From Escherichia phage CJ20, in sequence record MT533174.1: a stretch of DNA of 64,000 bases, one strand, 5' to 3'. The stretch's first letter is position 1. Each line of letters begins with the position of its first letter. Position numbers and translations under genes: made by a program. Shown here in pieces: positions 253 to 60,154 of the stretch. The notes beneath the pieces are model-generated. The model had not been told where the DNA came from and did not search any database. It saw nothing but the letters and a program-made list of their open reading frames with translations.

Positions 253-597
253 ATGTCTAAAGTATTTTTTGGTAATGCTAAAGTTATGTTCTTTAAACAG
301 ATTAGCCTTCAGGAGGCGTCGGAGGCATTCAATCAAAGTATGATTCCTGACGTACATCCAAAAGTTATGACGAGTGCTGATTTCGTTTTCGTCCAAGACC
401 CGGAAACAGGCTTTTATCGGTTCATTAAATTTCGTATGAGTATGGAGCCAGGTTATCATAGTGCTTACTACGTGAGTTATGAAAATGTTATCAAAGAATT
501 GCGTAATACCTATAAGCGCGCTTTGACCCCGCTGAATAAGGTGTATAATGCTTCCTTTTATACGAGCGGATTTATTTTAGAACAACTTCAAAAATAG
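253..597 (+). CDS. hypothetical early protein (114 aa)
   Basis: ATG preceded by GAGGAAAA RBS; compact spacing with neighbours; no recognisable motif. Confidence 0.5.
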   Translation: MSKVFFGNAKVMFFKQISLQEASEAFNQSMIPDVHPKVMTSADFVFVQDPETGFYRFIKFRMSMEPGYHSAYYVSYENVIKELRNTYKRALTPLNKVYNASFYTSGFILEQLQK

Positions 598-626
598 TGT
601 ACATACTCTTGGGGTCAGAGTATAAT
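597..626 (+). promoter_or_regulatory. T4-type early promoter (-35 GTGTACA 597-603, 17 bp spacer, -10 TATAAT 621-626)
   Basis: Matches T-even early consensus GTTTAC-N17-TATAAT; -10 sits in loop of inverted repeat GGGGTCA/TGACCCC. Confidence 0.6.
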
Positions 627-670
627 GACCCCACTGGAGCACAAAACTTTAACTTACTGAGGAAATTAAT

Positions 671-1120
671 ATGACTACTTACATGACCCGTCGTGACGTA
701 CTGAATGCTGGCGCTACCACTGTTGCTCACATCCATAATGGCAATTATGTTGCAGGGCGTCCAACTAAAGAAGCTATCGCCCAACCAGGTTTTTATTTCG
801 TGGTCAAAGGTGAAGGCGAATCGCGTATTGTTGCCGCACGTTTTTATGTTGGTAACCAACGTTCACAACAAGGGTTTGACACTGTATTAAGTCACATCCG
901 CAAACAGCGTTCACAACTGTCACGCACAATGGCGAACAATGGTGTTATCTATGAAGTCCTGTTTGTTCCAGTTTCTAAAATGAAACCCCTGACAACTGGT
1001 TATGGTAAAGGTCAAATTGCGATGGCGTTCACTCGCTCACATAGTTCTGATTGCCAGACCCTTTCAGAAATGAATCGCATGCTTGCTGATAACTTTAAAT
1101 TCATTCTGCAGAGCTATTAA
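671..1120 (+). CDS. ndd: nucleoid disruption protein Ndd-like (149 aa)
   Basis: Size and position immediately upstream of stp/ac/gene 52 as in T4; C-terminal [10 protein letters not shown] motif recalled from T4 Ndd. Confidence 0.6.
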
Positions 1121-2933: not shown

Positions 2934-2935
2934 AA

Positions 2936-2965: not shown

Positions 2966-2973
2966 AAAAAGTA

Positions 2974-3003: not shown

Positions 3004-3052
3004 GATTCCATACTGAGTTACAAACTGAATCACAAAAACTTTGGAGAATAAA

Positions 3053-3268: not shown

Positions 3269-3270
3269 TT

Positions 3271-3879: not shown

Positions 3880-3886
3880 GGAAATT

Positions 3887-5094: not shown

Positions 5095-5248
5095 CTTAGA
5101 GAACACCATCACTGGTCAGCGTACACGCGAGCAGGCTTGCTTTGAGGAATTCCTTGGAGCTGATTTTAAGTTCCAGGAACCAGTTGAACAGTTGTATCAG
5201 GAATATGTTGTACAGATGGAAAATCATGTGTACAACCCAGAGGAATAA
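5084..5248 (+). CDS. small hypothetical protein (54 aa)
   Basis: ATG-initiated ORF filling gap before asiA. Confidence 0.25.
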   Translation: MSHNLENTITGQRTREQACFEEFLGADFKFQEPVEQLYQEYVVQMENHVYNPEE

Positions 5249-5306
5249 TAGTACAATATCCCTACTGAATAATTGAATGTCTTATTGAATACTTGAGTAA
5301 ATTAAA

Positions 5307-5582
5307 ATGACTAAATTTGAAATCGTTTCTGAAATTGTTACTGTAACTTCAATTTTGATTAAAACCGACCGGGAAGATATTACGATGAAGCGTGATGTGT
5401 TTATCGCGTTTTTGAATGAGTTGGGATTGAGGAATGAGAATGGTAATGAGTTAAACAATGTATCGTTTAACAAGTTGTTTAAAAGTTTATCTGAAGATGA
5501 AATTGAACAAATCATTGAACAATTTAACGAAGGATTCGAAGATATACACCGTTATCTTATGATGTATACCTCCGGATTCTAA
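5307..5582 (+). CDS. asiA: anti-sigma70 factor AsiA (91 aa)
   Basis: Strong similarity to recalled T4 AsiA (VTVTSILIK, FIAFLNE, NEGFE, YRYLxMYT). Confidence 0.8.
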   Translation: MTKFEIVSEIVTVTSILIKTDREDITMKRDVFIAFLNELGLRNENGNELNNVSFNKLFKSLSEDEIEQIIEQFNEGFEDIHRYLMMYTSGF

Positions 5583-6232
5583 CGTGTACGCCCGAGCGTA
5601 CGACCTGCTTGTCCACACATAGCAGAAAGCCTATCAAAACTAAGGTCGGGTTTTTGCTTATACCAGTACAACGAGACTGTGCCTGCGTAAACGTTTTCCA
5701 AATTAAAGAATGGGCAGCTGAACATATATTCGAAGCTGCTTTTTTTCTTTGTTGGTAAGAATACAGATTCCGTGCCGGATTCAAAATAATTACCATTAAC
5801 CCCCGCCAAATATTCTGCTGAAGTTTTATCTATTGGAAACCCACCCAAATTTTTTTCATCAACTGATTCAGGCAATATCCCCTCATACCCCACCATATCC
5901 ACAAAGTAGTTAAGGTTAGTTGGTCTAAAGGAATATATCGCCGTGAAGTCAGCTCCGCTTGACGAGTGGACTATCTGGATTTGCTCGATAGCTGCAATTT
6001 TAAATCTGTTATCCTGGTCTTGCCTTATCATTTCTGTGTACGAGGCGTATGAAGCATCCCTGTACGCATCTAAAATTGCATCACCTTTATACCAGATTAC
6101 CGCCATTAAAAATAATAGAACAATAACTAGTACCCGGGAAAAAACAACTTTCCCGGTCGCATTATCTTTAAAAATTCTATCAAGAAGTCCAAAAAGTAGG
6201 TCTGATAATGAAAATCCTACTTTTGGTTCCAT
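5579..6232 (-). CDS. t: holin T (217 aa)
   Basis: Close match to recalled T4 holin T (SDLLFGLLDRIFKDNATGKV, NYFVDMVGYEG, DRLSAMCGQA); one N-terminal TM segment. Confidence 0.85.
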   Translation of the reverse strand: MEPKVGFSLSDLLFGLLDRIFKDNATGKVVFSRVLVIVLLFLMAVIWYKGDAILDAYRDASYASYTEMIRQDQDNRFKIAAIEQIQIVHSSSGADFTAIYSFRPTNLNYFVDMVGYEGILPESVDEKNLGGFPIDKTSAEYLAGVNGNYFESGTESVFLPTKKKSSFEYMFSCPFFNLENVYAGTVSLYWYKQKPDLSFDRLSAMCGQAGRTLGRTR

Positions 6233-6250
6233 ACTTTTCTCCTTTAAAGA

Positions 6251-6258
6251 TATTTATA
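6251..6258 (-). promoter_or_regulatory. late promoter TATAAATA for holin t
   Basis: TATAAATA on minus strand about 19 nt upstream of t start, with AAAGGAG RBS between. Confidence 0.55.
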
Positions 6259-6269
6259 ATACAGAAGTA

Positions 6270-7052
6270 TTACACACGGCTTCCGTGGATGGTTCCTACG
6301 TTCTGCCAAGAAGGAGCATTGCCTGTAACGGCTGCACCGCCGGCCCCACCGCCTGATGTTGAGACTTTCTTGCCCCAACCATTTCCCCCGGCAGCAGCTA
6401 CGTTACCACCATTACCGGCACCCCACTGTCCACCAGCGTTACCACCTGAACCAGCCGCAGTTAGAGACGCGTTACCACCCGGTTGATACCCAACGGAGCC
6501 ACCGAGTCCGAATGGACGGCCGCCACCACCACCACAGGTGGCATTAGTTGGCCATCTATTTTGCAATGATGCAGCGCCGCCGCCACCGCCGCCACCGGCG
6601 ATAGAACCATTATTACGAATACGGAGTTTAGTTCCGGCAGCGTTATGGATTGCTGTACCACCTGCTTGGCCTGCAGAACCATTGGTAGAACCGTTACCTC
6701 CTCGACCATAAACAGTTACACCGCTGTTAATAGTAAGCTGTATATACGCATTAGGTAAGTTGCTAGGGAATTCCAGGCAAGGGTTTCCTCTGCTGTTAGA
6801 TACTAAGTCACCAGTGATTGTAATAACCACTGGCGCACCACCTTGGGCTCTCATCCAGTTAATAAGGGAGTTTCTATCATAATTATGGTTGGCGCCTATA
6901 GATAGATAAATTTCTTTTGATTGTCCTGCCATCGAACCCATCCAACCCGGTACTGCAACTCGCACATCTCGCATTGCCGCATCCATCCAACGTTGTCCCG
7001 TTTCATCTACGGCAGATTGTCCAATCCAACCAGGAACACCTACAATTGCCAT
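6270..7052 (-). CDS. 38: long tail fibre adhesin gp38, T2-type glycine-rich receptor-recognition protein (260 aa)
   Basis: Multiple poly-Gly islands separating short variable segments; located directly downstream of gene 37. Confidence 0.75.
   Translation of the reverse strand: MAIVGVPGWIGQSAVDETGQRWMDAAMRDVRVAVPGWMGSMAGQSKEIYLSIGANHNYDRNSLINWMRAQGGAPVVITITGDLVSNSRGNPCLEFPSNLPNAYIQLTINSGVTVYGRGGNGSTNGSAGQAGGTAIHNAAGTKLRIRNNGSIAGGGGGGGAASLQNRWPTNATCGGGGGRPFGLGGSVGYQPGGNASLTAAGSGGNAGGQWGAGNGGNVAAAGGNGWGKKVSTSGGGAGGAAVTGNAPSWQNVGTIHGSRV
6330..6620. repeat. low-complexity GGN/CCN codon repeats (glycine islands of gp38)
   Basis: Runs of ccgccgccacc-type triplets on plus strand encoding Gly stretches on minus strand. 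Confidence 0.7.
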
Positions 7053-7063
7053 TAAAAATCCTT

Positions 7064-7081
7064 AGAGGGCCGAAGCCCTCT
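7064..7081 (-). promoter_or_regulatory. stem-loop between genes 37 and 38 (AGAGGGC-UUCG-GCCCUCU) just upstream of the gp38 RBS
   Basis: Perfect GC hairpin with UUCG loop in the 31 nt gap between gp37 stop and gp38 start. Confidence 0.5.
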
Positions 7082-7083
7082 TG

Positions 7084-10000
7084 TTAATTAAGTTTTGCTT
7101 CAAGTTCTTTAACTTTAGCCGACAGAGTTTTAACTGCTTCAATTAACAGAGCAACTTGTGCCTGGGTTGAAACGGTAAGAACTTTGTTACCTTTAATGTC
7201 GTCAACTTCACGAATAGCTTCAGGTAATACTTTTTCTAAACTCTGTGCAATAACACCTGCTTCGGTATGAACAACTTCGCCACCAATATAATCAGCTTTA
7301 TCATAGATTAAACCGTCTAGCTGTTCAACCTTATCAAGAGCATTTTCAATCGGTTTGAAGTTAGATTTCAAACGAATATCAGAACGAATATAAACGTTCG
7401 GGGCGTTAATATTCATATCCGAATAAGTATCACCTGACTGGAATCTCATGCGGCGGGCGGCATTAGTAATAATATCAAAAATACCGTCACCGCTCTGTTT
7501 AATACCAGTGTCATTATCACCGATTGCAATCGAGTTGCCACCAAGTGCGTTATTGATGTTAATACCAAATGAATTCATTTGATTAACACCAGATACAGTA
7601 GCGTTATTTAATACAAAGCGGTTAGCCCCGCCTGGAGTTTTTTCAAAGTAAGCAATATAGTTAGTTTCATCGGCAATTTCAATACGGTTACCGCGCGTAC
7701 CATCACCTGCATGAAATATACTCATATGTCTTGGATTAGCACCAGACTTATTAAAGTGAATATAACCATTATCTTTGATAACAATATCATTATAGAATGT
7801 GGCAAAGTCGCGAACAGATATGCCATTATTCATTGATACTTCACCAGTCGACAAGCTAATTGCGAAAGGACGTTTACTGTTCCAATCACCATTGACTGTA
7901 GCTGCGCCATCAGTAGCATTTTTATCTGTAAACAGAATATAAAAACTTCCACCGTCGTTTCGTAACATTGTAGCAACAGAACCAGTTTTATCATAGTTAC
8001 TTCTGATACGAATACCGGTTTGGTTATTAATAGCTATTTCAGAATCAGCTTCATAACGTTTTACTTTACCTGTGTCTACCAGGTTGTTAAGCATGTTAGC
8101 TACTTGGCCTTTAACATGATCAACTGGCAAAGAATCTACTGGGTTTTGAGTAGGACCAAAAGCGCCGATAACTTCTACGGTAGCATTATCAACTGCATGC
8201 CAGGTATAAGCTAATTGGTTGGCATAAGTACCAGATTCAACATAGACATCATATGTATTTCCTGAGGTATTAACTACAGCAATATCAGTAAGACCCGCAG
8301 CTGTTCTGGTATACATCACGGCGTTTAAACCTAATGGGCGGTCATTACCAGTACGAAGAACAATTTCTGTTATAGCACACTGCGTAAACAGTCCAGTATT
8401 AAATCCTTTACCACCAGTTACGGTAAATGAAGCAGTAGAAGTAGATTGTGGCATTGTTACTGTTGCAAACTTATACCATCCAGCAGTTGCACCGTATGTT
8501 ACAAATCCGGAATTGACCTTACGGTTTAATGTGGTATTCAAGTTAACAAAATTACCAGAACCACCTGTAATATTACCAGTTCTATCAAATCTGACTTGGC
8601 CTGCTATTAAATCGCGAGGTGAAATAAAATCACCGTTTTTAATAAATTCCCATCCAAAATCAGCGGTCTGTGGACCTGAAGAACCGTTATCTCCGCCACC
8701 ATGGTAATGAACTCGGAAATTACCATTATTAATTAAAGTCCCCAATGAATAGCAACCGTTACCTTGAACATAACGCTGTTTCAAAATCGGAACATATGTA
8801 CCAGTATCAGCTCTATCAATATTCATATAGAACGGCGCACGGACATTTTCATTATTCTGGGAAGCAAATGAACCCGCACCAGCTGGTCGAACTGCGTCAG
8901 TGCATTCGGCATCAATATACGATGCTTGTCCTATCTGCATACGGAAATTAGGAGAAATGCGACTATTACTAGTAACAACAACAAGTTTGCTATCATTGTC
9001 CACAGTAATCATATTACCGCCAGCTCCATCATCGCCTAACGTAACAGAATGGCGCATTTGTACCATACCATTATTAAGACTAATACTTAGCGGGCGGAGA
9101 TTACTTATTCCACCACTTTCACCAGCGTCTTTAGGAGTTGGAATAATATGCAATGCCGCTTCTGAACGACGGAAAATAGCACCGTATTCAGCGTTCCAAA
9201 TTCTTAATGCATCTGCTGTTCCACCAATTTTTACTTGTCCGGTAATAGAAGAACCACCACGAATAGTAGCCCCATTTTCAAAAGTAACGCCACCGCCAAA
9301 TGTACCTTTACCGGAAGCAGTAATATCACCAAGGCCTATGATATGGCCTGTTTCAACAGTTCCGTTAAACTTAAAGTTGACAGGTCCTATACCTCCGGCA
9401 ACGGCCGGATTTGTACGCTGGGCATAAAAATAATAACCTTGCGAATCTGATACTTCAAATACAGTTTCTCTGTTACCGCCGCCTGCATTAAATGAATTAC
9501 CCCAAGCTTTAAGTGTTACAGTGTTTTTGTTTTGACCGTTACGAAGACCTGCGTCCCAATTGATAGTTTTAGTACCATCAACACCAGAAGGCGCTTTAAA
9601 CGATAAAGCATTAGTATTATCATCACCATTTAAAAACAAGCCCGTACGCATAGAAATACGCTGGGTGGAGTTAATTGTTCCGTCCGCTCTAATAGCAACG
9701 CTATTGGAACCGGTTTTAATATCTAAAATTCCTGGTTCAACAATTAAACCTTCTGCCATACCAACAGCCATACGACCCGTGCCACGGAAATAGTGATACA
9801 TTTTAGAATTGCTGTTATAACCGATATGAGTCTGACCATCACCGTTATTATTACCATCAACCTCGGTACGCGCAGTAAACATTGCTTGGTTGTTATTTGG
9901 GAAATCCCAAGTAGAACCAGAATCTCGACTATAACCAACCATCAATTTTTTAGTACTATTAATACCGTTATTAAGAATAGTTGCAGATGAAATACCATTG

Positions 10001-20014: not shown

Positions 20015-20018
20015 TATA

Positions 20019-20046
20019 AGGGGACCTTCGGGTCCCTTTTTTATTT
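20019..20046 (+). terminator. rho-independent terminator after gene 32
   Basis: GGGACC-UUCG-GGUCCC hairpin plus T-run. Confidence 0.75.
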
Positions 20047-20056
20047 TCAAAAAGTA

Positions 20057-20086
20057 GTGTACAAGTCCTTTGAGCTAAGGCATAAT
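20057..20086 (+). promoter_or_regulatory. T4-type early promoter (GTGTACA-N17-CATAAT)
   Basis: Consensus early promoter with conserved leader GATTCCATCAACTACTGAT. Confidence 0.6.
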
Positions 20087-20124
20087 GATTCCATCAACTA
20101 CTGATAACAACTGAGGAAATAAAA

Positions 20125-20487
20125 ATGGAAATCGGCAAAAAATATGAGTTCAATCCACATCGTATTAAATCTTTCATTGATATTAGTTCATCGAATGCTA
20201 GTATGGTCGACATCATCCAAGAAAATGGCGGTTGGTTTGAAGTTAAATCAATATCAAGTGCAGACGGCTATGATTATGTAACCGAAATCATTTGTGCTAA
20301 TGGTGCAATCTATAATGATGATGGCATGGGTGATGATTATTTTGAACTTAGTGAAGAAGAGTTTTATTGCTTCCGCGAATACTCCAGTTATGCAAAAACA
20401 CCTTCAGGGGCGGTTTCTATTAATTGTGTTGTGGATGCTAATAACGTCGACCAAATCATTGAACTTCTACAAAAAGCTTTCAAATAA
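20125..20487 (+). CDS. hypothetical protein (120 aa), member of a small paralogous family
   Basis: RBS + ATG; shares GKKY and DDYFELSEEEFYCF motifs with ORF 20834-21202. Confidence 0.5.
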   Translation: MEIGKKYEFNPHRIKSFIDISSSNASMVDIIQENGGWFEVKSISSADGYDYVTEIICANGAIYNDDGMGDDYFELSEEEFYCFREYSSYAKTPSGAVSINCVVDANNVDQIIELLQKAFK

Positions 20488-20549
20488 CAGTTTACAACGG
20501 GTCTATGGTTGAGATACTATAGGCCTATCAACTACATGAGGAAAATAAA

Positions 20550-20777
20550 ATGGCTAAAGTTAATATTGATATCGTTGATTTTGAATACACTTACGAAGTT
20601 ATCCGCAATCGTTATCCTTCTTTGTGTATGACTTACATTAAAGATACCCAATTCTTTAGTGTTCAAATTGAAGTCCAGGGTCCTCTTGAAGACCTTACCC
20701 GCTTTATGCAAAATGAATATTGCGAAGGGATGCACCCGGAAGACGCTAAATTTTATATGAATTTGATTGAAGCTTAG
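20550..20777 (+). CDS. hypothetical protein (75 aa)
   Basis: GAGGAAAATAAA RBS; own early promoter upstream (GTTTACA 20490-20496). Confidence 0.5.
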
Positions 20778-20833
20778 TATACAAACCAACGGGAACATGC
20801 TAATATGTTCCCAACTGAAATGAGGAAATTAAA

Positions 20834-21202
20834 ATGATGGAAACTGGTAAATTTTACGTATTAGACCCTGCTGCTAAAAAACAATTCATCGCTGGTAGTC
20901 CTGATGATAATTCGTGCATAGTCAAGCTGATGGAACAGCATGGCAGTTCCTTCAAAGTCCTGGATATGTGCTTTATTGATGGCGATTATTTTGTTGAAAA
21001 AGTTGAAATGAAAGATGGCACCATCCTGAATAGTATGGGGGATTCTGATGAGTACTTTGAACTCGCTGAATGGGAATTCTGTCACTTCCTGGAAGTTGAT
21101 GGCGATGCTCCTTATGTTGATACCCAAACCATTCATGTGCAGGTAAATCATAAAAATGCCGCAGAAGTCATTGCACTGATTAAAGCAACTTTTGGGGTCT
21201 AA
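20834..21202 (+). CDS. hypothetical protein (122 aa), paralogue of 20125-20487 and 33097-33639
   Basis: Shares GKFY...AKKQFIAG with ORF 33097 and DEYFELAEWEF with ORF 20125. Confidence 0.5.
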   Translation: MMETGKFYVLDPAAKKQFIAGSPDDNSCIVKLMEQHGSSFKVLDMCFIDGDYFVEKVEMKDGTILNSMGDSDEYFELAEWEFCHFLEVDGDAPYVDTQTIHVQVNHKNAAEVIALIKATFGV

Positions 21203-21203
21203 T

Positions 21204-21458
21204 ATGACTAAAGATGATTTCCTGGATGCAGTAGAAAAAGCAAGCGAACAATTTGAAGTAATGGGTGTACGAGTTCATAAAGACAGAAATTATGGCCTCG
21301 ATGTTCAAACATACTCATTGTGGCTTGTTGGTGAACACAGTCTTGCAACCAATCTTGTTATGGGGGTTGATACTCATCCTTTATTAGTTAAGTTCAGAAG
21401 TATGGAAAAAGCCACCAAGGAAATGATTAAACTTGGCAAATGGCTTGATAAAATTTAA
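21204..21458 (+). CDS. hypothetical protein (84 aa)
   Basis: First ATG in frame; ORF-track start at 21192 is TTG. Confidence 0.45.
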   Translation: MTKDDFLDAVEKASEQFEVMGVRVHKDRNYGLDVQTYSLWLVGEHSLATNLVMGVDTHPLLVKFRSMEKATKEMIKLGKWLDKI

Positions 21459-21464
21459 AAAGTA

Positions 21465-21494
21465 GTGTACAACCAAATGGGGCTATGACATAAT
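21465..21494 (+). promoter_or_regulatory. T4-type early promoter (GTGTACA-N17-CATAAT)
   Basis: Conserved cassette AAAAAGTAGTGTACAA...CATAATGGTCCCATACTGAGTTAC. Confidence 0.6.
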
Positions 21495-21531
21495 GGTCCC
21501 ATACTGAGTTACCAAATAACTGGAGAATAAA

Positions 21532-21771
21532 ATGAAATTACAACGTGAGAGCATCAAAGATTCAGAAGTTAAAGGTAAATGGTACTTCACAATCCAGGGT
21601 AACAATCCAGAAGCTCTGGAAAAAGCTGAACAAGCTTTGTGTGAAATGGGTTGGAAAGATGAGTGTGATGGTTGTCCTCTTTATGAAGATGGCAGCTCGT
21701 CTGGTTTCTGGATTCACCACTCTGATGTTGACCAATTTAAAGCTGACTGGAAAGTTGCTAAGAAAGCGTGA
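21532..21771 (+). CDS. hypothetical protein (79 aa), Cys-containing
   Basis: RBS GGAGAATAAA; CEMGWKDECDGCP motif may bind metal. Confidence 0.5.
   Translation: MKLQRESIKDSEVKGKWYFTIQGNNPEALEKAEQALCEMGWKDECDGCPLYEDGSSSGFWIHHSDVDQFKADWKVAKKA

Positions 21772-22119: not shown

Positions 22120-22123
<4 letters not shown>
21782..22123 (+). CDS. hypothetical protein (113 aa)
   Basis: ATG after GAGGAAAATATA RBS; track ORF 21545-22123 is the same frame extended upstream. Confidence 0.45.
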
Positions 22124-23785
<1,662 letters not shown>

Positions 23786-23916
23786 TGCAAATTCAAATTG
23801 CTGGCATTTTATTTTTGGTCGTAATGGTCAGACTTAACTTCCTTCTATAAATACGATTCCGCTCCAGGGGTCATGTGTTAGTATAAGCATGACCCCATTT
23901 TATAACAGAGGAAAAC

Positions 23917-27826: not shown

Positions 27827-28959
27827 TTGAATTATATGATAACTTAATGAAGCTTTGCGCCGAATCCGATAAAGGTAAGTTTTTCTATACGGATTTTGTT
27901 TCTCCATTTGAAACTAAGTTCCGCATCTTCAGCTATAACTATGCTTCCTATAGTGATTGGCTTCTTGATGATGCACTGGAGTGTCGTGGCATTATGTTTG
28001 AAATGGATGACAATGGTCCAGTTCGCATTGCTGCCCGTCCTATGGAAAAATTCTTTAATCTGGGTGAGAACCCAATGACCATGGACCTTAACCTTGATGA
28101 AGTTGTCCTGGTTACTGCAAAAGCTGATGGTAGCTTGGTTTCTACTTATATGGACCAGACCAATATTGCTTTTAAATCCAAAGGGTCAATTAAAAGCTCC
28201 CAAGCTGCTGAATCTCTGCAGGTGTTTAAACAACCGCACCGTGAAGCGTTCAGGGCTCGTGTGACTGAAATCACTGAAGCTGGTTATACATGCAATATGG
28301 AATATGTTGCACCAACCAACCGCATTGTTTTGCCTTACCAGGAACGTGACCTGATTTTACTGAACGTTCGTCATAATGAAACTGGCGAATATATTCCTTA
28401 TCCTGAGCTGTTCAAAGATGCTGCACTCCGTCCTTTCCTGGTTGAAGCATATGACCTGGTGAGCATTGAGAATGTTCGTGGTATGAAAGAGATTGAAGGT
28501 TTCGTCTACGAGCTGGCAAGTGGTCAGAAGTTCAAGCTGAAAACAGAATGGTATTGTGCTCTGCACCATACTAAAGACTCCATTAATAATAATGAGCGCC
28601 TGTTTGAAGTTGTTGTTGCCGGCGGCGCAGATGATGTTATTGCCATGTTTACTGGTGATGATTATGCTCGCGAAAAAGTTAATGCCTTTACCATTGTACA
28701 TCTGGATTATCTGTCTAATACGCTGGGATTGTTGCTTGATGCCCAGAAACAGTTAGCAGGAAAAGACCGTCGCGAGTTTGCGATTAAAGGTCAAGAGTTG
28801 TGTAAACCATACCCGGGATTGTTCTCCGTATTAATGAACACATATCAACGCCCGCAGGAAACCGAACAAACGATTGCTCAAATCAATAAAGTTTTCCTTA
28901 AAAATCATAAACTTTACATTCCGTCGGACTACCAAGCGGAAGTAATCCTTCCTGAATAA
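27823..28959 (+). CDS. rnlA: RNA ligase 1 (378 aa)
   Basis: Adenylylation motif KADGSL; extensive similarity to recalled T4 Rnl1. Confidence 0.85.
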   Translation: MIELYDNLMKLCAESDKGKFFYTDFVSPFETKFRIFSYNYASYSDWLLDDALECRGIMFEMDDNGPVRIAARPMEKFFNLGENPMTMDLNLDEVVLVTAKADGSLVSTYMDQTNIAFKSKGSIKSSQAAESLQVFKQPHREAFRARVTEITEAGYTCNMEYVAPTNRIVLPYQERDLILLNVRHNETGEYIPYPELFKDAALRPFLVEAYDLVSIENVRGMKEIEGFVYELASGQKFKLKTEWYCALHHTKDSINNNERLFEVVVAGGADDVIAMFTGDDYAREKVNAFTIVHLDYLSNTLGLLLDAQKQLAGKDRREFAIKGQELCKPYPGLFSVLMNTYQRPQETEQTIAQINKVFLKNHKLYIPSDYQAEVILPE

Positions 28960-28969
28960 TAAAAAAGGG

Positions 28970-28999
28970 GTGTACAAGCCCCTCCTTTCTATACATAAT
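28970..28999 (+). promoter_or_regulatory. T4-type early promoter (GTGTACA-N17-CATAAT); -35 lies in loop of GGGG/CCCC hairpin
   Basis: Consensus spacing; leader GGTTCCATCAACTACTGAT shared with promoter at 20057. Confidence 0.55.
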
Positions 29000-29030
29000 G
29001 GTTCCATCAACTACTGATGAGGACTAAAAC

Positions 29031-29264
29031 ATGTTAAACTTAATTACAAATGAAAGAGTTACACAGGCATATGGTGACAGTAATGACGGAATCTATGTCT
29101 ACAAGGGAGACCGCCGGATTGGTTTCATTACTGACCTGAAGGCCAAATTGTTAAAAGAACTGAAAGCTCAAACAGGTGATTCTGGGTTTAGAGCAAGAGC
29201 CAAAAAGAAAGATGAACGCCTGGGTGCCAACTCTTTTGGTCCCCGGGGTTACAACCGCTACTAA
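29031..29264 (+). CDS. hypothetical protein (77 aa), tandem paralogue of next ORF
   Basis: Shares YGDxxDGIYVYKGxxxIGxxTDL N-terminal motif with ORF 29278. Confidence 0.45.
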   Translation: MLNLITNERVTQAYGDSNDGIYVYKGDRRIGFITDLKAKLLKELKAQTGDSGFRARAKKKDERLGANSFGPRGYNRY

Positions 29265-30412: not shown

Positions 30413-30516
30413 TTGAGTCTTGTATCGATGGGTCGGATGTCATTCTATTTGGCTTTACATGCTTTTGTTTTGGAATCGTGCTTAGCATGTGTATAAATGG
30501 TATTTTTGGAAAGTAG
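30409..30516 (+). CDS. small Cys-rich hydrophobic peptide (35 aa)
   Basis: ATGA overlap with o-spanin stop; may be non-coding. Confidence 0.2.
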   Translation: MIESCIDGSDVILFGFTCFCFGIVLSMCINGIFGK

Positions 30517-30545
30517 TTTACAAACTCTTGGGAGCAGAGTATAAT
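30516..30545 (+). promoter_or_regulatory. T4-type early promoter (GTTTACA-N17-TATAAT) with -10 inside GGAGCA/TGCTCC hairpin
   Basis: Consensus elements and 17 bp spacer; same loop sequence GAGTATAA as promoter at 597. Confidence 0.6.
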
Positions 30546-30573
30546 GCTCCTACGGATTATAAAATTTGAGGAA

Positions 30574-31058
30574 ATGACTATGACATTACGTGATAACAGT
30601 TTTGTGGCTAAGCCTGAATACATTTCAGGTGTTAAATCCCCTGCATTACAAAAGCTCTTAAAATTAGGGTCCTGTGCAAGTACACCAATTGAAAAGAAGG
30701 CAACTTTTGATTTTGCTTGGGCTATGGTGGACGGTATTGATGTAGTAAGACAGGTAACTTTTTATGCTCCGGGCGCTATTAAGCCTTCGCAAATTATTAA
30801 TCTGGATGGAAGTAATTATATTACTATTCAGCATTGGTATCGTATGATGCGACCTGTTTGGGAATACCCGGAATTTATTGAAGAATACAATGAAAAAGAA
30901 CGTATTCGTGAGCTAGTAAAAAGTTTTGAATACGCGGCTAAACGCCATGGTCAAATGCAATCTGCCGCTGCACTTGGTGATGTTTCTGAAAGTGCAGCTT
31001 ATGAAACTGGTAAAATCCTTAAAACCTGTCGCGAAGAACTTTATAAGGAGCTTGGCGT

Positions 31059-36138: not shown

Positions 36139-36200
36139 GCTGTAGGTGATTCGCTACCTTAGTGCGGCTAGAAAATCGAGGAGCCGTCGAACTGCCTGAT

Positions 36201-36220
36201 TAATGATTCGCGAATCATTA
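36201..36220. repeat. perfect 20 bp palindrome TAATGATTCG/CGAATCATTA
   Basis: Exact inverted repeat inside an ORF-free GC-rich intergenic region. Confidence 0.9.
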
Positions 36221-36434
36221 TAGTTTTAAGACCCCAGCAGTTTTACGGTGTACCTCTTGAATGTATTTTGTACTATCACGCGTCAGAAAAAGGTTATCTG
36301 TCTAAGCCGTGGTTGGTATGATGACGAGGTTTATGGTTATCCTGTCGTTAAATATCCGAAACCTAATGTTCCCTTCGAGGGCTTGCGCAGGCAACGTCAA
36401 TAAGTCCTGCATTCTATTTTAAAGAGAATTTAAT

Positions 36435-36596: not shown

Positions 36597-36601
36597 GTTC
36601 A

Positions 36602-36629
36602 GGGACTCTTCGGAGTCCCTTTTTTATTT
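36602..36629 (+). terminator. rho-independent terminator (GGGACUC-UUCG-GAGUCCC + U-run)
   Basis: GC hairpin with UUCG loop and T-run. Confidence 0.75.
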
Positions 36630-36640
36630 TCCATAAAGGG

Positions 36641-36670
36641 GTTTACAACAGGGTTTGACCAGTGCATAAT
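36641..36670 (+). promoter_or_regulatory. T4-type early promoter (GTTTACA-N17-CATAAT) with conserved leader
   Basis: Cassette GTTTACA...CATAATGATTCCATACTGAGTTAC. Confidence 0.6.
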
Positions 36671-36711
36671 GATTCCATACTGAGTTACACAATAAAACAC
36701 TGGAGAATAAA

Positions 36712-37080
36712 ATGAAAATCAATCTTAACTCATACATCAAAGGTAAAGACCACGACGGTTACAAAGCCATTGAAACTAAAGAAATGCAATGGCACTTGTA
36801 TAAAGAACAGTTTGAATTCGTTTCTTGTATGACTCCAGAAGGTCCTTCTGATGACTTCTCCTGGAAAATTATGGTAACAAACTTTTTTACTGGTGATACC
36901 TACGAACTGAAAACTTTGATTCTTGGCAAGATTCGTTGTAAGACCTATGAAGATGAAGAAACTGGTTATTCTGAAGATGTTACATGGTATCAAAATGGTC
37001 GCACCACTGCTGATGATTTGATTGAAAAAATGAAAGCTAAGGGTGAATTAAATTTAGATAATTGGATTAAAGTCGCATAA
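36712..37080 (+). CDS. hypothetical protein (122 aa)
   Basis: GGAGAATAAA RBS + ATG after early promoter. Confidence 0.5.
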   Translation: MKINLNSYIKGKDHDGYKAIETKEMQWHLYKEQFEFVSCMTPEGPSDDFSWKIMVTNFFTGDTYELKTLILGKIRCKTYEDEETGYSEDVTWYQNGRTTADDLIEKMKAKGELNLDNWIKVA

Positions 37081-38258: not shown

Positions 38259-38471
38259 ATGATTAAGAAATTATTTAAAAAGCTGTTTGGCTTGGAAATG
38301 GTTGAAGTTACTTATCGTGTTATTGATTTATCACCTCCATATGCTTGTGATGAAGATGCTATTAAGACTGTTGTAATGCGAAAAACATATCGCGGGCGGT
38401 CAATTAAATCCAGATTACCGGACCACGGTATGTGGTATGCAACCAAGATTATCAGTGTCAAAGATGTCTGA
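38259..38471 (+). CDS. hypothetical protein (70 aa), tandem paralogue 2
   Basis: Same length and conserved motif blocks as ORF 38037. Confidence 0.45.
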   Translation: MIKKLFKKLFGLEMVEVTYRVIDLSPPYACDEDAIKTVVMRKTYRGRSIKSRLPDHGMWYATKIISVKDV

Positions 38472-57185: not shown

Positions 57186-57212
57186 AAGGGCCGCAAGGCC
57201 CTTATTCTTTTT
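57186..57212. terminator. bidirectional terminator (GGGCC-GCAA-GGCCC flanked by A7 and T-rich runs)
   Basis: Between convergent rnlB (+) and gp24 paralogue (-). Confidence 0.7.
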
Positions 57213-58485
57213 CCAGTGGTGGAAGTTTAACACCAAGATAAGAACTCAATTGGCTTTGGTTAGCCATCTTATCCATATCAGCCCCATCAATAAGGCGGGC
57301 TTCTTTATCATCTTTAGCAACGGTGTAGGGGTTAGCTGTCAAAGCATAACGAGCTAACAGTGCAACCGTAGGCTGTAAGCTTTCAGGGTCAACAATAACC
57401 TTGAATTCCCCAACCGATGTATCACCCTCATCATCAACTTCGCTAAGCCCTTCCGTATAAGGCGCATAATACAAAGATGCGACCGTCTGACCCTCGCCCA
57501 TATCCGCATTTACGCCAACAATAACATAATCGCATGGACTATTCATATCTGCATAAAGAGGCAAACCGTTCTTCAGAACACCATAGGCCAATTCATCCTG
57601 GTCTTCCTTTTTCTCAACCCAGCCAGAAGCGGCTAAAATAGCTGCACAACGGGAAGAAGCAACCGCATATGTACCAGCAAACGAAGTCTGACGTTGAACT
57701 GCAGAATTCATTTCACACATATAATAATACAGGGTTCGTGCGCGGTCCTGTGCGTTATCATATTTCGGGTCAGTGAGATTCAACACACCTTTTTCAGAAA
57801 CACCTTGTACCTTGAAGCGAGAACTAACAGTAATAAGGGATTGCAATACATCCTTATTAATTTCCTCTGCCATTTGAATGCCGAGAATATTATCGATGAA
57901 GTCTGTTGCATCGAAACCGTTTGCTTCCAGGTCCTGAGCAAGCTCGACAGTTAAAGAAGTTTTCAACTTTCTGGATTTAACTTCAGTCTGCCATTTATCG
58001 ATACGGAAACCAGCTTCAGCAATTTCAGGATGCCCCTTTTCAAATTTATCAGTGAAAGCAGCATCTGACATCATTCTTATATGTCCAGCAGCAATGGCTT
58101 CAGAAATAACTTCACCTAAATCAGTTTCGAGTGTCCCGGCAAAGGGGGAAGCTTCCAGAACTTTGAATACAACGCTTTCAAACTGAAACATATCGCCGAC
58201 TGCATAAGCTTCGTCTTTGTTCGTAAATTCTGGGATATTCTTACGCTCGAACATACCAATCTGGCCCGCGAATGTCGCTCCACCAAGATATGTCATTTTA
58301 TCATCTGGGGTCAGAACACGAACACCATACAACGCTGCAACAGGCTGGGTAGTTTTCTGTTCGGCAACGAGTGCTTTAAAAATTCGTTTATTCGTGGCCT
58401 GGGTATAAGAAAGCAAATTAGGACGGGCGACCTGGTTGGCCGCCGTTAATGTTGATTCGTGAATTAGTGCGTTAATCTTTTGCAT
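57202..58485 (-). CDS. head vertex protein gp24 paralogue (427 aa), second tandem copy
   Basis: gp23/gp24-fold signature blocks shared with upstream copy; GAGG RBS; start abuts upstream stop (TAAATG). Confidence 0.75.
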   Translation of the reverse strand: MQKINALIHESTLTAANQVARPNLLSYTQATNKRIFKALVAEQKTTQPVAALYGVRVLTPDDKMTYLGGATFAGQIGMFERKNIPEFTNKDEAYAVGDMFQFESVVFKVLEASPFAGTLETDLGEVISEAIAAGHIRMMSDAAFTDKFEKGHPEIAEAGFRIDKWQTEVKSRKLKTSLTVELAQDLEANGFDATDFIDNILGIQMAEEINKDVLQSLITVSSRFKVQGVSEKGVLNLTDPKYDNAQDRARTLYYYMCEMNSAVQRQTSFAGTYAVASSRCAAILAASGWVEKKEDQDELAYGVLKNGLPLYADMNSPCDYVIVGVNADMGEGQTVASLYYAPYTEGLSEVDDEGDTSVGEFKVIVDPESLQPTVALLARYALTANPYTVAKDDKEARLIDGADMDKMANQSQLSSYLGVKLPPLEKE

Positions 58486-59766
58486 TTACGCCTCATAAAT
58501 GATTGGCGGAAGTTTAACACCGAGCAGATAAGACATATTGCTCTGGCCGGCCATTAAATCCATATTAGTTGCATCGATAATACGAGCTTCTTTGTCGTCT
58601 TTAGCAACGGTGTAAGGGTTAGCTGAAAGTGCATATCGAACCATCAGGGAGATAGATGGCTGCAAACTGTCTGGGTCCACAATGACCTTAAACGCACCTA
58701 CGTGTTCTTCATCATCTAAGTCCAGGCCTTCGGTATAAGGAGCATAGAAGATTGAGCCTACGACTTCGTTTCCACCGTAATTTTCTTTAACGCCAACGGT
58801 TACATAATCCAATGGACTGTTAACATCACAGAATACAGGAAGACCATTAATCAAATAACCGTACGCTGTTTCAGGAAGCCATTGCTCGTCTTCAGGTTTA
58901 TGCTTCAGCCAGCCAGAACCAGCCAACATAGCAGCAACACGGCTAGAGGCAACAACAAAGGTACCGGAATAAGATGTAGTTTTCTGAATTTCGGAGTTCA
59001 TTTCGCAAACCAGTTCGTACAGTTTACGTGCACCTTCTGGAGCTGCATCATATGTTAAATCGATGGTGCCATTGTCAGAAACGCCAGTTACTTTATAACG
59101 CTTGGAAACGGTAATAAGAGACTGAAGAACATCTTTGTTAATTTCATCTGCCATAATAGTGGCAAGCAGGTCTTCCAAGAAAGCAGGAGCGTTAAACCCA
59201 TTTGCTTCCATATCCTGAGCAAGTTCAACAGTTAGTGCAGTTTTCAATTTACGTGTTTTAACCGGAGCATTCCATTTATTAACCTGGAATACAGCATTAC
59301 TAATCTCAACATCACCGGCTTCAAATTTCTCGGTGTGTGCCGCATCAGGAACCAAACGAATGGTTAATGCAATAAGACCTTCTTGCAGAACATCAGATAA
59401 CACTGTTTCTTTGGTCGATGCAAATGGATTATCAACCAGAGCTTTATAAACGGTATTTTGATATTTTACATATTCACCTTTAGCTACAGGCTGAGTGGCT
59501 GTAGTTAATTCTGGAATAGTTGTACGGTCTTTAGAACCGACTTCGCCACCATAAGTAGCACCAGTCTGGAAACTGAATTCATTATCAGGAGTAAGATATT
59601 TAACACCGTACAGAGCCGCAACTGGCTGGTTAGTACGTTGTTCAGCGATAATATCGCGGTAAATCAATTTGGTTGTAGCACGGGTCAAAGCAACAAGATT
59701 CGGGCGGCCCAAGGAGTTGCTGGTAGTGGTAGTTGACTCGCGCAGTAATTTGTTAATCTTTGCCAT
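58486..59766 (-). CDS. 24: head vertex protein gp24 (426 aa)
   Basis: Similarity to gp23 core blocks; size equals T4 gp24 (427 aa); late promoter upstream; position next to gene 23. Confidence 0.8.
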   Translation of the reverse strand: MAKINKLLRESTTTTSNSLGRPNLVALTRATTKLIYRDIIAEQRTNQPVAALYGVKYLTPDNEFSFQTGATYGGEVGSKDRTTIPELTTATQPVAKGEYVKYQNTVYKALVDNPFASTKETVLSDVLQEGLIALTIRLVPDAAHTEKFEAGDVEISNAVFQVNKWNAPVKTRKLKTALTVELAQDMEANGFNAPAFLEDLLATIMADEINKDVLQSLITVSKRYKVTGVSDNGTIDLTYDAAPEGARKLYELVCEMNSEIQKTTSYSGTFVVASSRVAAMLAGSGWLKHKPEDEQWLPETAYGYLINGLPVFCDVNSPLDYVTVGVKENYGGNEVVGSIFYAPYTEGLDLDDEEHVGAFKVIVDPDSLQPSISLMVRYALSANPYTVAKDDKEARIIDATNMDLMAGQSNMSYLLGVKLPPIIYEA

Positions 59767-59792
59767 TTGCGCTTTCCTTTTGTGATATACTT

Positions 59793-59800
59793 TATTTATA
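59793..59800 (-). promoter_or_regulatory. late promoter TATAAATA upstream of gene 24
   Basis: TATAAATA on minus strand about 27 nt upstream of gp24 ATG. Confidence 0.6.
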
Positions 59801-59806
59801 AAAGTT

Positions 59807-59836
59807 GTTTACAACCCGATTAAGATAAGACATAAT
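59807..59836 (+). promoter_or_regulatory. T4-type early promoter (GTTTACA-N17-CATAAT) with conserved leader
   Basis: Cassette shared with promoters at 2974, 21465 and 36641. Confidence 0.6.
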
Positions 59837-59872
59837 GATTTCATACTGAGTTACCAAACAATGGAGTCTAAA

Positions 59873-60154
59873 ATGAACAAAGTATCTTTCCTTCGGAATA
59901 CCTTTAAAAATCTGGAAATTGAAGTTGTTGCATTGGTCAACAAATACCCAAATGGTGTTAATGGTAATGCTCTGAACAAACTAGTTAAAAAATATGAAAA
60001 CTTAGCATATGATACTGATTTTTGGTGGAATGGTAATTATTCTACTCACACCAAAGACAAATCAGGTAACTGGTTGAAACTTCAAGAGAACAGTGTTAAT
60101 TTCAGAGACCTCATCAAGCGCCGGGTAGAAGTTCATTTAAATGGTATGGTATGA
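59873..60154 (+). CDS. hypothetical early protein (93 aa) between late genes 24 and 23
   Basis: GGAG RBS + ATG after early promoter; opposite strand to flanking late genes. Confidence 0.45.
   Translation: MNKVSFLRNTFKNLEIEVVALVNKYPNGVNGNALNKLVKKYENLAYDTDFWWNGNYSTHTKDKSGNWLKLQENSVNFRDLIKRRVEVHLNGMV

What the first reader, a model, noticed from the sequence alone, without database searches (positions are those of the whole stretch)
36602..36711. Recurrent early promoter plus conserved leader cassettes
At least six sites share AAA(A)GT(A)GT(G/T)TACAA - 17 bp - CATAATG plus a 17-20 nt leader. One leader variant, (A/G)TT(C/T)CATACTGAGTTAC, is at 2974-3025, 21465-21515, 36641-36690 and 59807-59855. 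A second, GATTCCATCAACTACTGAT, is at 20057-20105 and 28970-29015. Several are preceded by a UUCG-loop terminator. They bracket blocks of small accessory ORFs, like the promoter-early-stem-loop cassettes proposed to drive modular shuffling in T4-type genomes.
Basis: partly seen in the sequence, partly recalled or inferred. Interest (0 to 1): 0.45.

Follow-up and report, generated by a model that had tools for sequence, protein, structure and literature searches.

The report
Repeated early promoter cassettes, T4-like phage
The window comes from a T4-like coliphage (genus Gaprivervirus), and the flagged repeats are its terminator, early-promoter, leader and ribosome-site cassettes, a lineage-specific version of the known T4-type early promoter or "PeSL" modules, several of which sit exactly where related phages have gained, lost or swapped small genes.

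Summary
All six sites are at the stated coordinates, all on the + strand, and far above chance. Two more sites (597, 30516) share the -35 block but have a hairpin over the -10.

The window is a Gaprivervirus, about 95% identical to VR20 and SP18. The + strand is the early-gene strand.

Each cassette has these parts:
- often a UUCG-loop intrinsic terminator
- an A/T tract
- TGTACA or TTTACA, a 17 bp spacer, then CATAAT
- a 6-nt discriminator
- an invariant 12-13 nt transcript start
- a Shine-Dalgarno site

In leader-A cassettes the Shine-Dalgarno site is GGAGAAUAAAA, the published RegB/S1 cleavage consensus.

Leader A (AUACUGAGUUAC) is the most repeated 12-mer of a full relative (12 copies). 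It is nearly confined to Gaprivervirus. Leader B (AUCAACUAC) is the shared start of early transcripts in Dhakavirus and a T4-like phage too.

The leader core never varies among orthologues (0 of 104 columns, against 20 of 136 in the spacer). It is unstructured.

In nine relatives, gene-content breakpoints fall inside four of the five strict cassettes in the stretch compared with all nine relatives. The junctions lie in the hairpin, in the -10/discriminator or at the Shine-Dalgarno site. This fits the PeSL model.

Verdict: real, and a new member of a known kind. The function of the invariant leader is unknown.

The parts
36601..36631 (+). Focal cassette: intrinsic terminator of gene 30.9. Stem GGGACTC, loop TTCG, stem GAGTCCC, then TTTTTTATTTT. 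The T run doubles as the A/T-rich upstream region of the promoter.
   Evidence: -14.2 kcal/mol, z -3.95. In TH54 the stem carries a compensatory change (GGGGCTC/GAGCCCC). SP18 and TH54 have an extra gene inserted here between two such hairpins.
36642..36670 (+). Focal cassette: sigma-70-type early promoter. -35 TTTACA (36642-47), 17-bp spacer, -10 CATAAT (36665-70).
   Evidence: The spacer varies among orthologues while both hexamers do not.
36671..36689 (+). Focal cassette: discriminator GATTCC (36671-76), then the invariant leader core ATACTGAGTTACA. The transcription start at A36677 is inferred.
   Evidence: The start site is inferred from the 7-nt distance to the -10 hexamer; it was not measured.
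36702..36714 (+). Focal cassette: GGAGAATAAAA (Shine-Dalgarno site and RegB/S1 target consensus), overlapping the ATG of gene 30.8 (36712-37080).
   Evidence: The consensus GGAGAAUAAAA comes from Durand et al. 2006, PMC1702504.
2939..3055 (+). Leader-A cassette after gp52, upstream of the small ORF that precedes motA. UUCG terminator 2939-56, -35 2975-80, -10 2998-3003, +1 3010, GGAGAATAAAA 3043, ATG 3053.
20018..20127 (+). Leader-B cassette after gene 32, upstream of frd.2a. UUCG terminator 20018-39, -35 20058-63, -10 20081-86, +1 20093 (ATCAACTACTGAT), GAGGAAA 20113, ATG 20125.
   Evidence: In VR26 the same promoter is fused to leader A and to a different gene.
21445..21534 (+). Leader-A cassette upstream of frd.1, without a terminator. 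-35 21466-71, -10 21489-94, discriminator GGTCCC, +1 21501, GGAGAATAAAA 21522, ATG 21532.
   Evidence: Breakpoints abut it in VR26 and TH54.
28955..29033 (+). Leader-B cassette after rnlA, upstream of alc. The hairpin AGGGG-TGTACAAG-CCCCT overlaps the -35. -10 28994-99, +1 29006, ATG 29031.
   Evidence: No breakpoint in nine relatives.
59785..59875 (+). Leader-A cassette driving a 93-aa ORF that lies between the late genes 23 and 24 on the opposite strand. -35 59808-13, -10 59831-36, +1 59843, GGAGTCTAAAA 59863, ATG 59873.
   Evidence: Conserved in SP18, RZ, VR26 and VR20.
585..673 (+). Third cassette type, upstream of ndd. Same -35 block; TATAAT lies inside the hairpin GGGGTC-agagtataat-GACCCC; the leader starts ACTGGAG.
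   Evidence: (-18.3 kcal/mol). The same 35 nt recur at the motB promoter of VR20.
30500..30582 (+). Third cassette type, after pseT.2. TATAAT lies inside the hairpin GGGAGC...GCTCC. ATG 30580.
   Evidence: The downstream gene is replaced in SP18 and TH44, with the junction at the Shine-Dalgarno site/ATG.
20488..20552 (+). Weaker promoter of the same design before frd.3: GTTTACAA, 17 nt, TACTAT, aggcct, ATCAACTAC, then GAGGAAAATAAAATG.
   Evidence: It is a breakpoint in SP18 and VR26.
20777..20836 (+). Weaker promoter before frd.2b: GTATACAA, 16 nt, TAATAT.
   Evidence: It is a breakpoint in SP18 and VR26.

Best explanation
These are the immediate-early expression cassettes of a Gaprivervirus. 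They are the local form of the T-even early promoter, joined to a terminator upstream and to a short leader and ribosome site downstream.

Proposed mechanism:
1. Where a UUCG hairpin plus U run is present, it ends the upstream transcript. Its T run, together with the A tract, forms an A/T-rich upstream element.
2. Unmodified host sigma-70 RNA polymerase binds TGTACA or TTTACA, a 17-bp spacer and CATAAT. It starts at the A that lies 7 nt after the -10 hexamer.
3. The transcript begins with an unstructured, invariant 12-13 nt. This is either AUACUGAGUUAC (leader A) or AUCAACUACUGAU (leader B).
4. The 5' UTR is 25-43 nt long and ends in a strong Shine-Dalgarno site.
5. In leader-A cassettes that site is GGAGAAUAAAA, the optimal target of the phage RegB/S1 endoribonuclease. 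Expression would therefore be a short burst that is cut off after transcription.

Because 60-110 nt of near-identical sequence recurs about 16-30 times per genome, the copies also recombine with one another. This homogenises them within a lineage. It also inserts, deletes or swaps the small genes between them, which is PeSL-type modular shuffling.

Shown here: the anatomy, copy number, strand bias and purifying selection, and the recombinant junctions in relatives.

Inferred, not shown: promoter and terminator activity, the start site, RegB cleavage, and the recombination mechanism.
For: Identity of the phage and of the genes:
- The window is about 95% identical to VR20, SP18 and PSD2001, all Gaprivervirus.
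- The cassettes precede homologues of T4 early genes.

Copy number and strand:
- A full relative (VR20) has 16 strict cassettes, all on the early strand. Ten have leader A, three have leader B and three are the hairpin type.
- A looser scan gives 23, 13 and 20 promoters in VR20, a Dhakavirus and a T4-like phage. All are on one strand in each genome.
- CATACTGAGTTA is the most repeated 12-mer of VR20, with 12 copies. GGAGAATAAAAT has 11 copies.

Selection:
- Among paralogues the spacer is essentially random, while the -10 and positions +1 to +12 are invariant.
- Among orthologues, variable columns are: leader 0 of 104, -10 0 of 48, spacer 20 of 136, distal leader 10 of 136. Fisher p values are 6.6e-6 and 5.7e-3.

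Relationship to other T-even phages:
- In Dhakavirus CLBP2, 25 promoters read TACTAT-AGACCT-ATCAA.
- In the T4-like phage HP3, 7 promoters read TGGTACTAT-ACAACT-ATCAAC.
- The design, and the ATCAAC start, are therefore shared across genera.
- Orthologous genes carry the promoter flavour of their own genus. This is the signature of concerted evolution.

Other parts of the cassette:
- The terminators fold at -12.9 to -14.7 kcal/mol. One shows a compensatory stem change.
- GGAGAAUAAAA is the published RegB/S1 consensus.
- regB is annotated in VR20.

Junctions in relatives:
- VR26 joins the gene-32 promoter to leader A inside CATAATGATTCCAT.
- SP18 and TH44 replace the gene after 30516, starting at the Shine-Dalgarno site/ATG.
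- SP18 and TH54 carry an extra gene (30.6A) at the focal cassette, flanked by two hairpins.
- TH54 lacks the gene that ends at cassette 21465.

Literature:
- PeSLs are defined in PMC2839356 and PMC4122927.
- The properties of T4 early promoters are reviewed in PMC2988021.
Against: - There is no transcript mapping for this phage or its genus, so the start site and the promoter and terminator activities rest on consensus.
- CATAAT has C at -12, and most copies lack the TGn extended -10 that is typical of T4 early promoters.
- Sigma-70 contacts do not explain why +3 to +13 should be invariant.
- Four of eight cassettes show no breakpoint in the relatives examined.
- Most breakpoints in the region lie elsewhere: at homing endonuclease insertions at 19012 and 26181, and at coupled small ORFs at 22125 and 38243.
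- The enrichment test used junction counts made by hand.
Confidence: 0.75

Rival explanations
1. The invariant leader is an RNA-level signal of its own: a 5'-terminal tag on immediate-early mRNAs. A phage or host factor would read it to control stability, translation or timed decay. It would not be a by-product of promoter function. This reading could be true alongside the main explanation.
For: - The leader is invariant at +1 to +13 among orthologues (0 of 104 columns), although the adjacent spacer and distal leader vary.
- It comes in two discrete forms.
- ATCAAC is kept across three genera, although the 6-nt discriminator just upstream differs by genus.
- It always sits at the predicted 5' end.
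- Leader A goes with GGAG ribosome sites in 9 of 10 VR20 copies.
Against: - The leader has no secondary structure (z >= 0 for all six).
- It matches no Rfam family.
- Its complementarity to 16S rRNA is no better than chance.
- No factor is known.
- The motif never occurs away from a promoter, so RNA and DNA roles cannot be separated by sequence alone.
Confidence: 0.25
2. The block from the -10 through the discriminator and leader is a DNA operator. A phage factor would bind it to shut off early promoters a few minutes after infection.
For: - The mechanism of early-promoter shut-off in T4 is described as not completely understood, and AsiA is not required (PMC3014915 and PMC2988021).
- The conserved block overlaps the start site, where a roadblock would act.
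- The sequence of the block is specific to each lineage although the host polymerase is the same.
Against: - This is entirely circumstantial.
- The leader has no dyad symmetry beyond 3-4 bp.
- Concerted evolution by recombination explains the lineage-specific uniformity without any factor.
Confidence: 0.1
3. The repeats are neutral relics of recent duplication or of a selfish mobile cassette, and the leader has no function.
For: - The copies are mosaic and clearly exchange segments.
- The same cassette, including a similar spacer, occurs in Morganella phage MP1 of another genus.
Against: - Paralogous spacers are unrelated while the leader is identical, which recent duplication would not give.
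- Orthologues show purifying selection on the leader.
- ATCAAC is conserved across genera whose nrdA genes differ by about 20%.
Confidence: 0.05

Closest known systems
PeSL (promoter-early stem-loop) cassettes of T4-type phages (Arbiol et al. 2010, PMC2839356; Comeau et al. 2014, PMC4122927)
   Same: - Composite repeats made of an A/T-rich region, a sigma-70-type early promoter, a stem-loop and a Shine-Dalgarno site plus ATG.
- Many copies, concentrated among small accessory genes.
- They sit at insertions, deletions and replacements between close relatives.
- Crossovers lie between the -10 and the ATG, or in the stem-loop.
- Both described architectures occur here: stem-loop upstream of the promoter (as in PST/T4), and stem-loop over the -10 or -35 (as in RB49).
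   Different: - PeSLs were described for RB49/phi1, PST/T4 and nt-1/KVP40, not for Gaprivervirus.
- The hexamers here are TGTACA or TTTACA and CATAAT.
- The papers do not mention a conserved leader (the word 'leader' has 0 hits). Here the first 12-13 transcribed nt are as conserved as the -10.
- Mini-circle formation was not testable.
T4 early promoters (reviewed by Hinton 2010, PMC2988021)
   Same: - Very strong sigma-70 promoters with UP-like A/T tracts, a GTTTAC-like -35, a 17-bp spacer, and 'additional regions of consensus'.
- They lie on the early strand before immediate-early genes.
- A T4-like genome (HP3) and a Dhakavirus show the same layout, and the same ATCAAC start as leader B.
   Different: - The -10 is CATAAT rather than TACTAT or TATAAT.
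- The TGn extended -10 is mostly missing.
- The discriminator is GATTCC.
- Leader A (ATACTGAGTTAC) replaces ATCAAC at orthologous loci and is nearly confined to Gaprivervirus.
RegB/S1 target sites in T4 early mRNAs (Durand et al. 2006, PMC1702504)
   Same: The ribosome-site module GGAGAAUAAAA of the focal cassette, and of those at 3043 and 21522, is letter for letter the stated consensus. It lies in an unstructured leader.
   Different: - Cleavage was not tested.
- Leader-B cassettes use GAGG sites.
- Cassette 59807 has GGAGUCUAAAA, which departs from the A-rich rule.

Membership tests
PeSL cassette | [quoted passage not shown] | tested here: met
   The hexamers are 17 bp apart and follow an A tract or T run in all eight strict sites.
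PeSL cassette | Stem-loop adjacent to or overlapping the promoter | tested here: met
   UUCG terminators lie upstream of 2974, 20057 and 36641. A hairpin overlaps the -35 at 28970 and the -10 at 597 and 30516. At 21465 I saw only a weak 6-bp stem by eye. 59807 has none.
PeSL cassette | Shine-Dalgarno site and start codon of the downstream gene at the 3' end | tested here: met
   All eight sites have them, with 5' UTRs of 25-43 nt.
PeSL cassette | Many copies per genome, preferentially among variable accessory genes | tested here: met
   VR20 has 16 strict copies: in the ndd-motA, frd, alc-pseT, 30.x, nrdC.x, tRNA-proximal ORF, dmd and motB regions, plus one inside the late block between genes 23 and 24.
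PeSL cassette | Located at indel or replacement breakpoints between close relatives, with crossovers inside the cassette | tested here: met
   Breakpoints occur at 20057, 21465, 30516 and 36641 in VR26, TH54, SP18 and TH44. The junctions lie in the hairpin, in the -10/discriminator or at the Shine-Dalgarno site. There are none at 597, 2974, 28970 or 59807. The enrichment is modest.
PeSL cassette | Promoter and terminator activity, and formation of mini-circles by recombination between copies | not testable with these tools
   Needs reporter assays and inverse PCR on infected cells or virion DNA.
T4-type early promoter | GTTTAC-like -35, 17-bp spacer, TAnnnT-like -10 | tested here: met
   TGTACA or TTTACA, 17 bp, then CATAAT or TATAAT. 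C at the first -10 position is a departure.
T4-type early promoter | TGn extended -10 | tested here: not met
   HP3 has TGgTACTAT. Here only 2974 and 36641 have a TG, and it sits one base too close, as TGCATAAT.
T4-type early promoter | Transcribed by unmodified host polymerase immediately after infection | not testable with these tools
   No transcript data were found for the genus.
RegB/S1 target site | Single-stranded GGAG followed by a 7-nt A-rich stretch (GGAGRAYARAA) | tested here: met
   GGAGAATAAAA occurs at 3043, 21522 and 36702, and the leaders are unstructured. 59863 (GGAGTCTAAAA) fits poorly.
RegB/S1 target site | regB gene in the same genome, and cleavage in vivo | not tested
   regB is annotated in the relative VR20, outside the part homologous to the window. 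Cleavage needs primer extension.

The most novel reading that the evidence does not exclude
The invariant first 12-13 transcribed nucleotides are a functional element in their own right. They come as AUCAACUAC, shared by Gaprivervirus, Dhakavirus and T4-like phages, and as AUACUGAGUUAC, which has replaced it at about a dozen Gaprivervirus promoters. One possibility is that they are the cis-element through which T-even early promoters are abruptly shut off a few minutes after infection, a mechanism still described as not understood. Another is that they are a 5' tag read on immediate-early mRNAs.
Probability: 0.15. Interest if true: 0.7.

Novelty: new member of a known kind. Interest (0 to 1): 0.3.

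Why it matters
The cassettes give a ready-made map of the immediate-early transcription units of Gaprivervirus phages, several of which are used or proposed for therapy and biocontrol. They also add a fourth lineage in which promoter-terminator repeats coincide with gene shuffling, which supports the generality of the PeSL idea.

The less expected point is that the initial transcribed sequence is under as much constraint as the -10 hexamer. It is shared across genera, and in one lineage it has been replaced wholesale by a different sequence. That is a clean natural experiment for asking what the first dozen nucleotides of T-even early transcripts do.

Tried and rejected
- RNA structure in the leader: all six 5' UTRs fold no better than shuffles (z -0.03 to +1.2).
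- Known RNA families: no Rfam match in the whole window.
- Translational enhancer by pairing with 16S rRNA: the longest complementarity is 5-7 nt, and 79-100% of shuffles reach it.
- Host origin: 5,426 E. coli genomes match only the terminator hairpin (28-31 nt, 34 genomes). None matches the promoter or leader.
- Generic sigma-70 scan: it does not discriminate (58 hits against 50 expected). The evidence rests on the specific repeats instead.
- Mini-ORF: ATG ATT CCA TAC TGA starts in CATAATG. I set this reading aside because the ATG lies upstream of the predicted start site and has no ribosome site.
- NAD-cap-favouring start context: from memory of the published consensus, CC at -2/-1 and U at +2 fit poorly. 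This was not tested.
- Literature: I found no description of these cassettes in VR7, VR20 or SP18. The MP1 paper only lists MEME-found promoters.
- The Miller 2003 T4 genome review could not be read.

Full report

Yes.
- The 13-mer CATACTGAGTTAC occurs exactly at 3009, 21500, 36676 and 59842, always on the + strand. Six matches at two mismatches or fewer compare with 1.43 expected, and no shuffle reached six.
- The 19-mer GATTCCATCAACTACTGAT occurs at 20087 and, with one mismatch, at 29000, against 0.02 expected.
- All six sites carry GT(G/T)TACAA, 16 nt, then CATAATG. Read as hexamers this is TGTACA or TTTACA, a 17-bp spacer, and CATAAT.
- Three of the six are preceded by a UUCG-loop hairpin and a T run, at -12.9 to -14.7 kcal/mol.

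- two more strict sites (597, 30516) that have the same -35 block but a GC hairpin enclosing a TATAAT -10
- several weaker promoters of the same design
- a conserved ribosome-site module

**2. Where are we?**

The window is about 95% identical to the Gaprivervirus phages VR20, SP18 and PSD2001 (T4-like, Straboviridae). By their annotation the + strand of the window is the early and middle gene strand.

| Cassette | Position |
|---|---|
| 597 | before ndd |
| 2974 | after gp52, before the small ORF ahead of motA |
| 20057 | after gene 32, before frd.2a |
| 21465 | before frd.1 |
| 28970 | after rnlA, before alc |
| 30516 | after pseT.2 |
| 36641 (focal) | between 30.9 and 30.8 |
| 59807 | before a small early-strand ORF wedged between late genes 23 and 24 |

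**3. Anatomy of the focal cassette**

| Coordinates | Element |
|---|---|
| 36594-96 | stop codon of 30.9 |
| 36602-19 | hairpin GGGACTC-TTCG-GAGTCCC |
| 36620-29 | T run |
| 36642-47 | -35 TTTACA |
| 36648-64 | 17-bp spacer |
| 36665-70 | -10 CATAAT |
| 36671-76 | discriminator GATTCC |
| 36677 | predicted start (A) |
| 36677-89 | leader core ATACTGAGTTACA |
| 36702-12 | GGAGAATAAAA |
| 36712 | ATG of 30.8 |

The start site is inferred from its distance to the -10 hexamer.

**4. Genome-wide picture**

I assembled the whole VR20 genome from five fetched pieces.
- A strict scan gives 16 credible cassettes, all on the early strand. Ten have leader A, three have leader B, and three are the hairpin type.
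- CATACTGAGTTA is the most repeated 12-mer of that genome, with 12 copies. GGAGAATAAAAT has 11 copies.
- By BLAST, leader A occurs 9-14 times in every Gaprivervirus record. Elsewhere it occurs three times in Morganella phage MP1 and once each in two other phages.
- The MP1 copy is the complete cassette, with UUCG terminator, promoter, leader and GGAG. Its authors annotated it as a terminator and a promoter.
- Leader B at full length is found only in Gaprivervirus.

**5. The leader is not peculiar to this genus**

- About 16 further VR20 promoters read (-10)-NNNYCC-ATCAACTAC.
- In a Dhakavirus (CLBP2) the most repeated 12-mers are TGATACTATAGACCTATCAACTA. Twenty-five promoters have that form.
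- In HP3, seven promoters read TGGTACTATACAACTATCAAC. HP3 has 35.4% G+C and an nrdA gene as close to the window's as those of AR1 and RB51, so I treat it as T4-like.

So T-even early promoters share a layout in which the -10, a 6-nt discriminator and a transcript starting ATCAAC are conserved. Leader B is the ancestral form. Leader A is a Gaprivervirus (and MP1) replacement.

At orthologous genes the promoter flavour follows the genus, not the gene. Examples are frd.1, the gene at VR20 167874 and the gene at VR20 47759. The host polymerase is the same for all three genera. Lineage-specific uniformity therefore points to homogenisation among copies (concerted evolution), or to co-evolution with a phage factor.

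**6. Selection**

- Among the ten VR20 leader-A paralogues the spacer is essentially random, while the -10 and positions +1 to +12 are invariant.
- Among orthologues from up to six genomes, variable columns are as follows:

| Segment | Variable columns |
|---|---|
| leader +1 to +13 | 0 of 104 |
| -10 | 0 of 48 |
| discriminator | 3 of 48 |
| -35 block | 3 of 64 |
| spacer | 20 of 136 |
| distal leader | 10 of 136 |

- The leader differs from the spacer at p = 6.6e-6 and from the distal leader at p = 5.7e-3.

The leader core is thus under constraint as tight as the -10 hexamer. Recent duplication cannot explain this.

**7. What the leader is not**

- It is unstructured. All six 5' UTRs fold no better than shuffles.
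- The window has no Rfam match.
- The leader does not pair with 16S rRNA beyond chance.
- It has no counterpart in E. coli genomes, which share only the terminator hairpin.

**8. The ribosome-site module**

In the window, three of the four leader-A cassettes end in GGAGAATAAAATG. In VR20, nine of ten have a GGAG site. Durand et al. [quoted passage not shown] RegB cleavage of Shine-Dalgarno sites inactivates immediate-early mRNAs such as motA (PMC2988021 and PMC3014915).

I therefore infer that leader-A cassettes give a burst of expression that is ended after transcription. This is inference from the sequence match only.

**9. Breakpoints**

I compared 16500-40500 with nine relatives, 1-7100 with five, and the 59807 locus with four.

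Breakpoints at cassettes:
- **20057.** VR26 keeps the terminator, -35, spacer and CATAATGATTCCAT of this cassette. It then continues with leader A and a different gene, so the junction lies inside the shared -10/discriminator.
- **21465.** It is a rearrangement boundary in VR26. It is also the right edge of a one-gene deletion in TH54.
- **30516.** The downstream gene is replaced in SP18 and TH44, starting at the Shine-Dalgarno site/ATG.
- **36641 (focal).** SP18 and TH54 carry an extra gene (30.6A) inserted between the T run and the promoter. It is flanked by two UUCG-type hairpins. The TH54 copy of the first hairpin has a compensatory stem change.
- **Weak promoters 20490 and 20777.** They bound the frd.3 gene, which is deleted in SP18 and relocated in VR26.

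No breakpoint was seen at 597, 2974, 28970 or 59807.

Other breakpoints have other causes:
- homing endonuclease insertions at 19012 and 26181, and in SP18 an intron-like endonuclease gene at 32281
- translationally coupled small ORFs at 22125 and 38243
- the td-nrdA spacer

With my hand count of 50 junctions (my later recount gives about 46), of which 15-17 carry breakpoints, four of five strict promoters and six of about ten promoters overall coincide with a breakpoint. The rough hypergeometric p is 0.02-0.03. This is suggestive, not strong.

**10. Comparison with what is known**

The cassettes meet every sequence-level criterion of PeSLs as defined by Arbiol et al. 2010 and Comeau et al. 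2014.
- Both published architectures occur here.
- Crossovers lie between the -10 and the ATG, as in those papers.

The cassettes are also plainly T-even early promoters. They depart in three ways: CATAAT with C at -12, no TGn in most copies, and a different discriminator.

I found no description of them for Gaprivervirus. The PeSL papers do not mention a conserved leader. Hinton's review only speaks of 'additional regions of consensus'.

**11. Verdict**

It is a new member of a known kind.

The residual open point is why the first dozen transcribed nucleotides are invariant, and why one lineage replaced them. The shut-off of T4 early promoters is still described as not completely understood. 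An operator or RNA-tag role for this element therefore cannot be excluded, but nothing here demonstrates it.

Noticed in passing
window 23779-23916 (td-nrdA spacer): The window lacks the nrdA.1 and nrdA.2 genes that eight of nine relatives carry here (insertions of 291-883 nt). A 73-nt stretch (23779-23851) recurs before those genes in the relatives. The spacer also holds a TATAAATA late-promoter-like octamer (23846-53), and a 9-bp hairpin GGGGTCATG...CATGACCCC (23867-96) whose loop contains a -10-like TAGTAT.
   Followed up: partly
window 597-640 and 30516-30560; VR20 166293 and 6504: This is a third promoter family, in which a strong hairpin (-13.7 to -18.3 kcal/mol) encloses the TATAAT -10, like RB49-type PeSLs. 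The ndd and motB promoters of VR20 share an identical 35-nt core that includes the spacer.
   Followed up: partly
L026 (Morganella phage MP1, KX078569.1 61858-61942): A phage of another genus and host carries the complete leader-A cassette: UUCG terminator, AAAAAGTGGTGTACAA, CATAATGATCCCATACTGAGTTA and GGAG. Its spacer resembles that of the VR20 cassette at 19712. This suggests either shared ancestry or transfer of the cassette.
   Followed up: partly
window 36668-36682 and the same position in the other cassettes: The G after CATAAT creates a mini-ORF: ATG ATT CCA TAC TGA in leader A, and a 9-codon ORF in leader B. It always stops before the Shine-Dalgarno site. It lies upstream of the predicted start site and has no ribosome site, so it would be present only in read-through transcripts.
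   Followed up: no
window 57202-59766 (- strand): Gene 24 (capsid vertex protein) is present as two tandem copies, as in VR20 and VR26. SP18 and RZ have a single copy.
   Followed up: no
window 19012/19023, 26181/26209, 32281: The window lacks three insertions that some relatives carry: a segG-type endonuclease gene between genes 59 and 32, an endonuclease gene between nrdA and nrdB, and inserts of 190-700 nt after pseT.
   Followed up: partly
window 38259-38471 and 22120-22350: Two small ORFs are absent from six and four of the nine relatives respectively. Both indels are at translationally coupled gene ends, not at promoters.
   Followed up: partly
window 36601-36631: Chromosomes of 34 of 5,426 E. 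coli genomes contain a 28-31 nt stretch nearly identical to this terminator hairpin plus T run. The promoter and leader have no host match.
   Followed up: no
window 36139-36434 (rIII-30.9 spacer): This is a long spacer with a 50-nt segment (36264-36315) that six of nine relatives replace with about 150 nt. It also contains a weak promoter-like site at 36248 and a 51-aa GTG ORF.
   Followed up: no
L014-L017 (KY608967.1, phage HP3): The record's taxonomy line says Rosemountvirus. However, the 168-kb genome has 35.4% G+C and an nrdA gene as similar to the window's as those of the T4-like phages AR1 and RB51. The label looks wrong.
   Followed up: no
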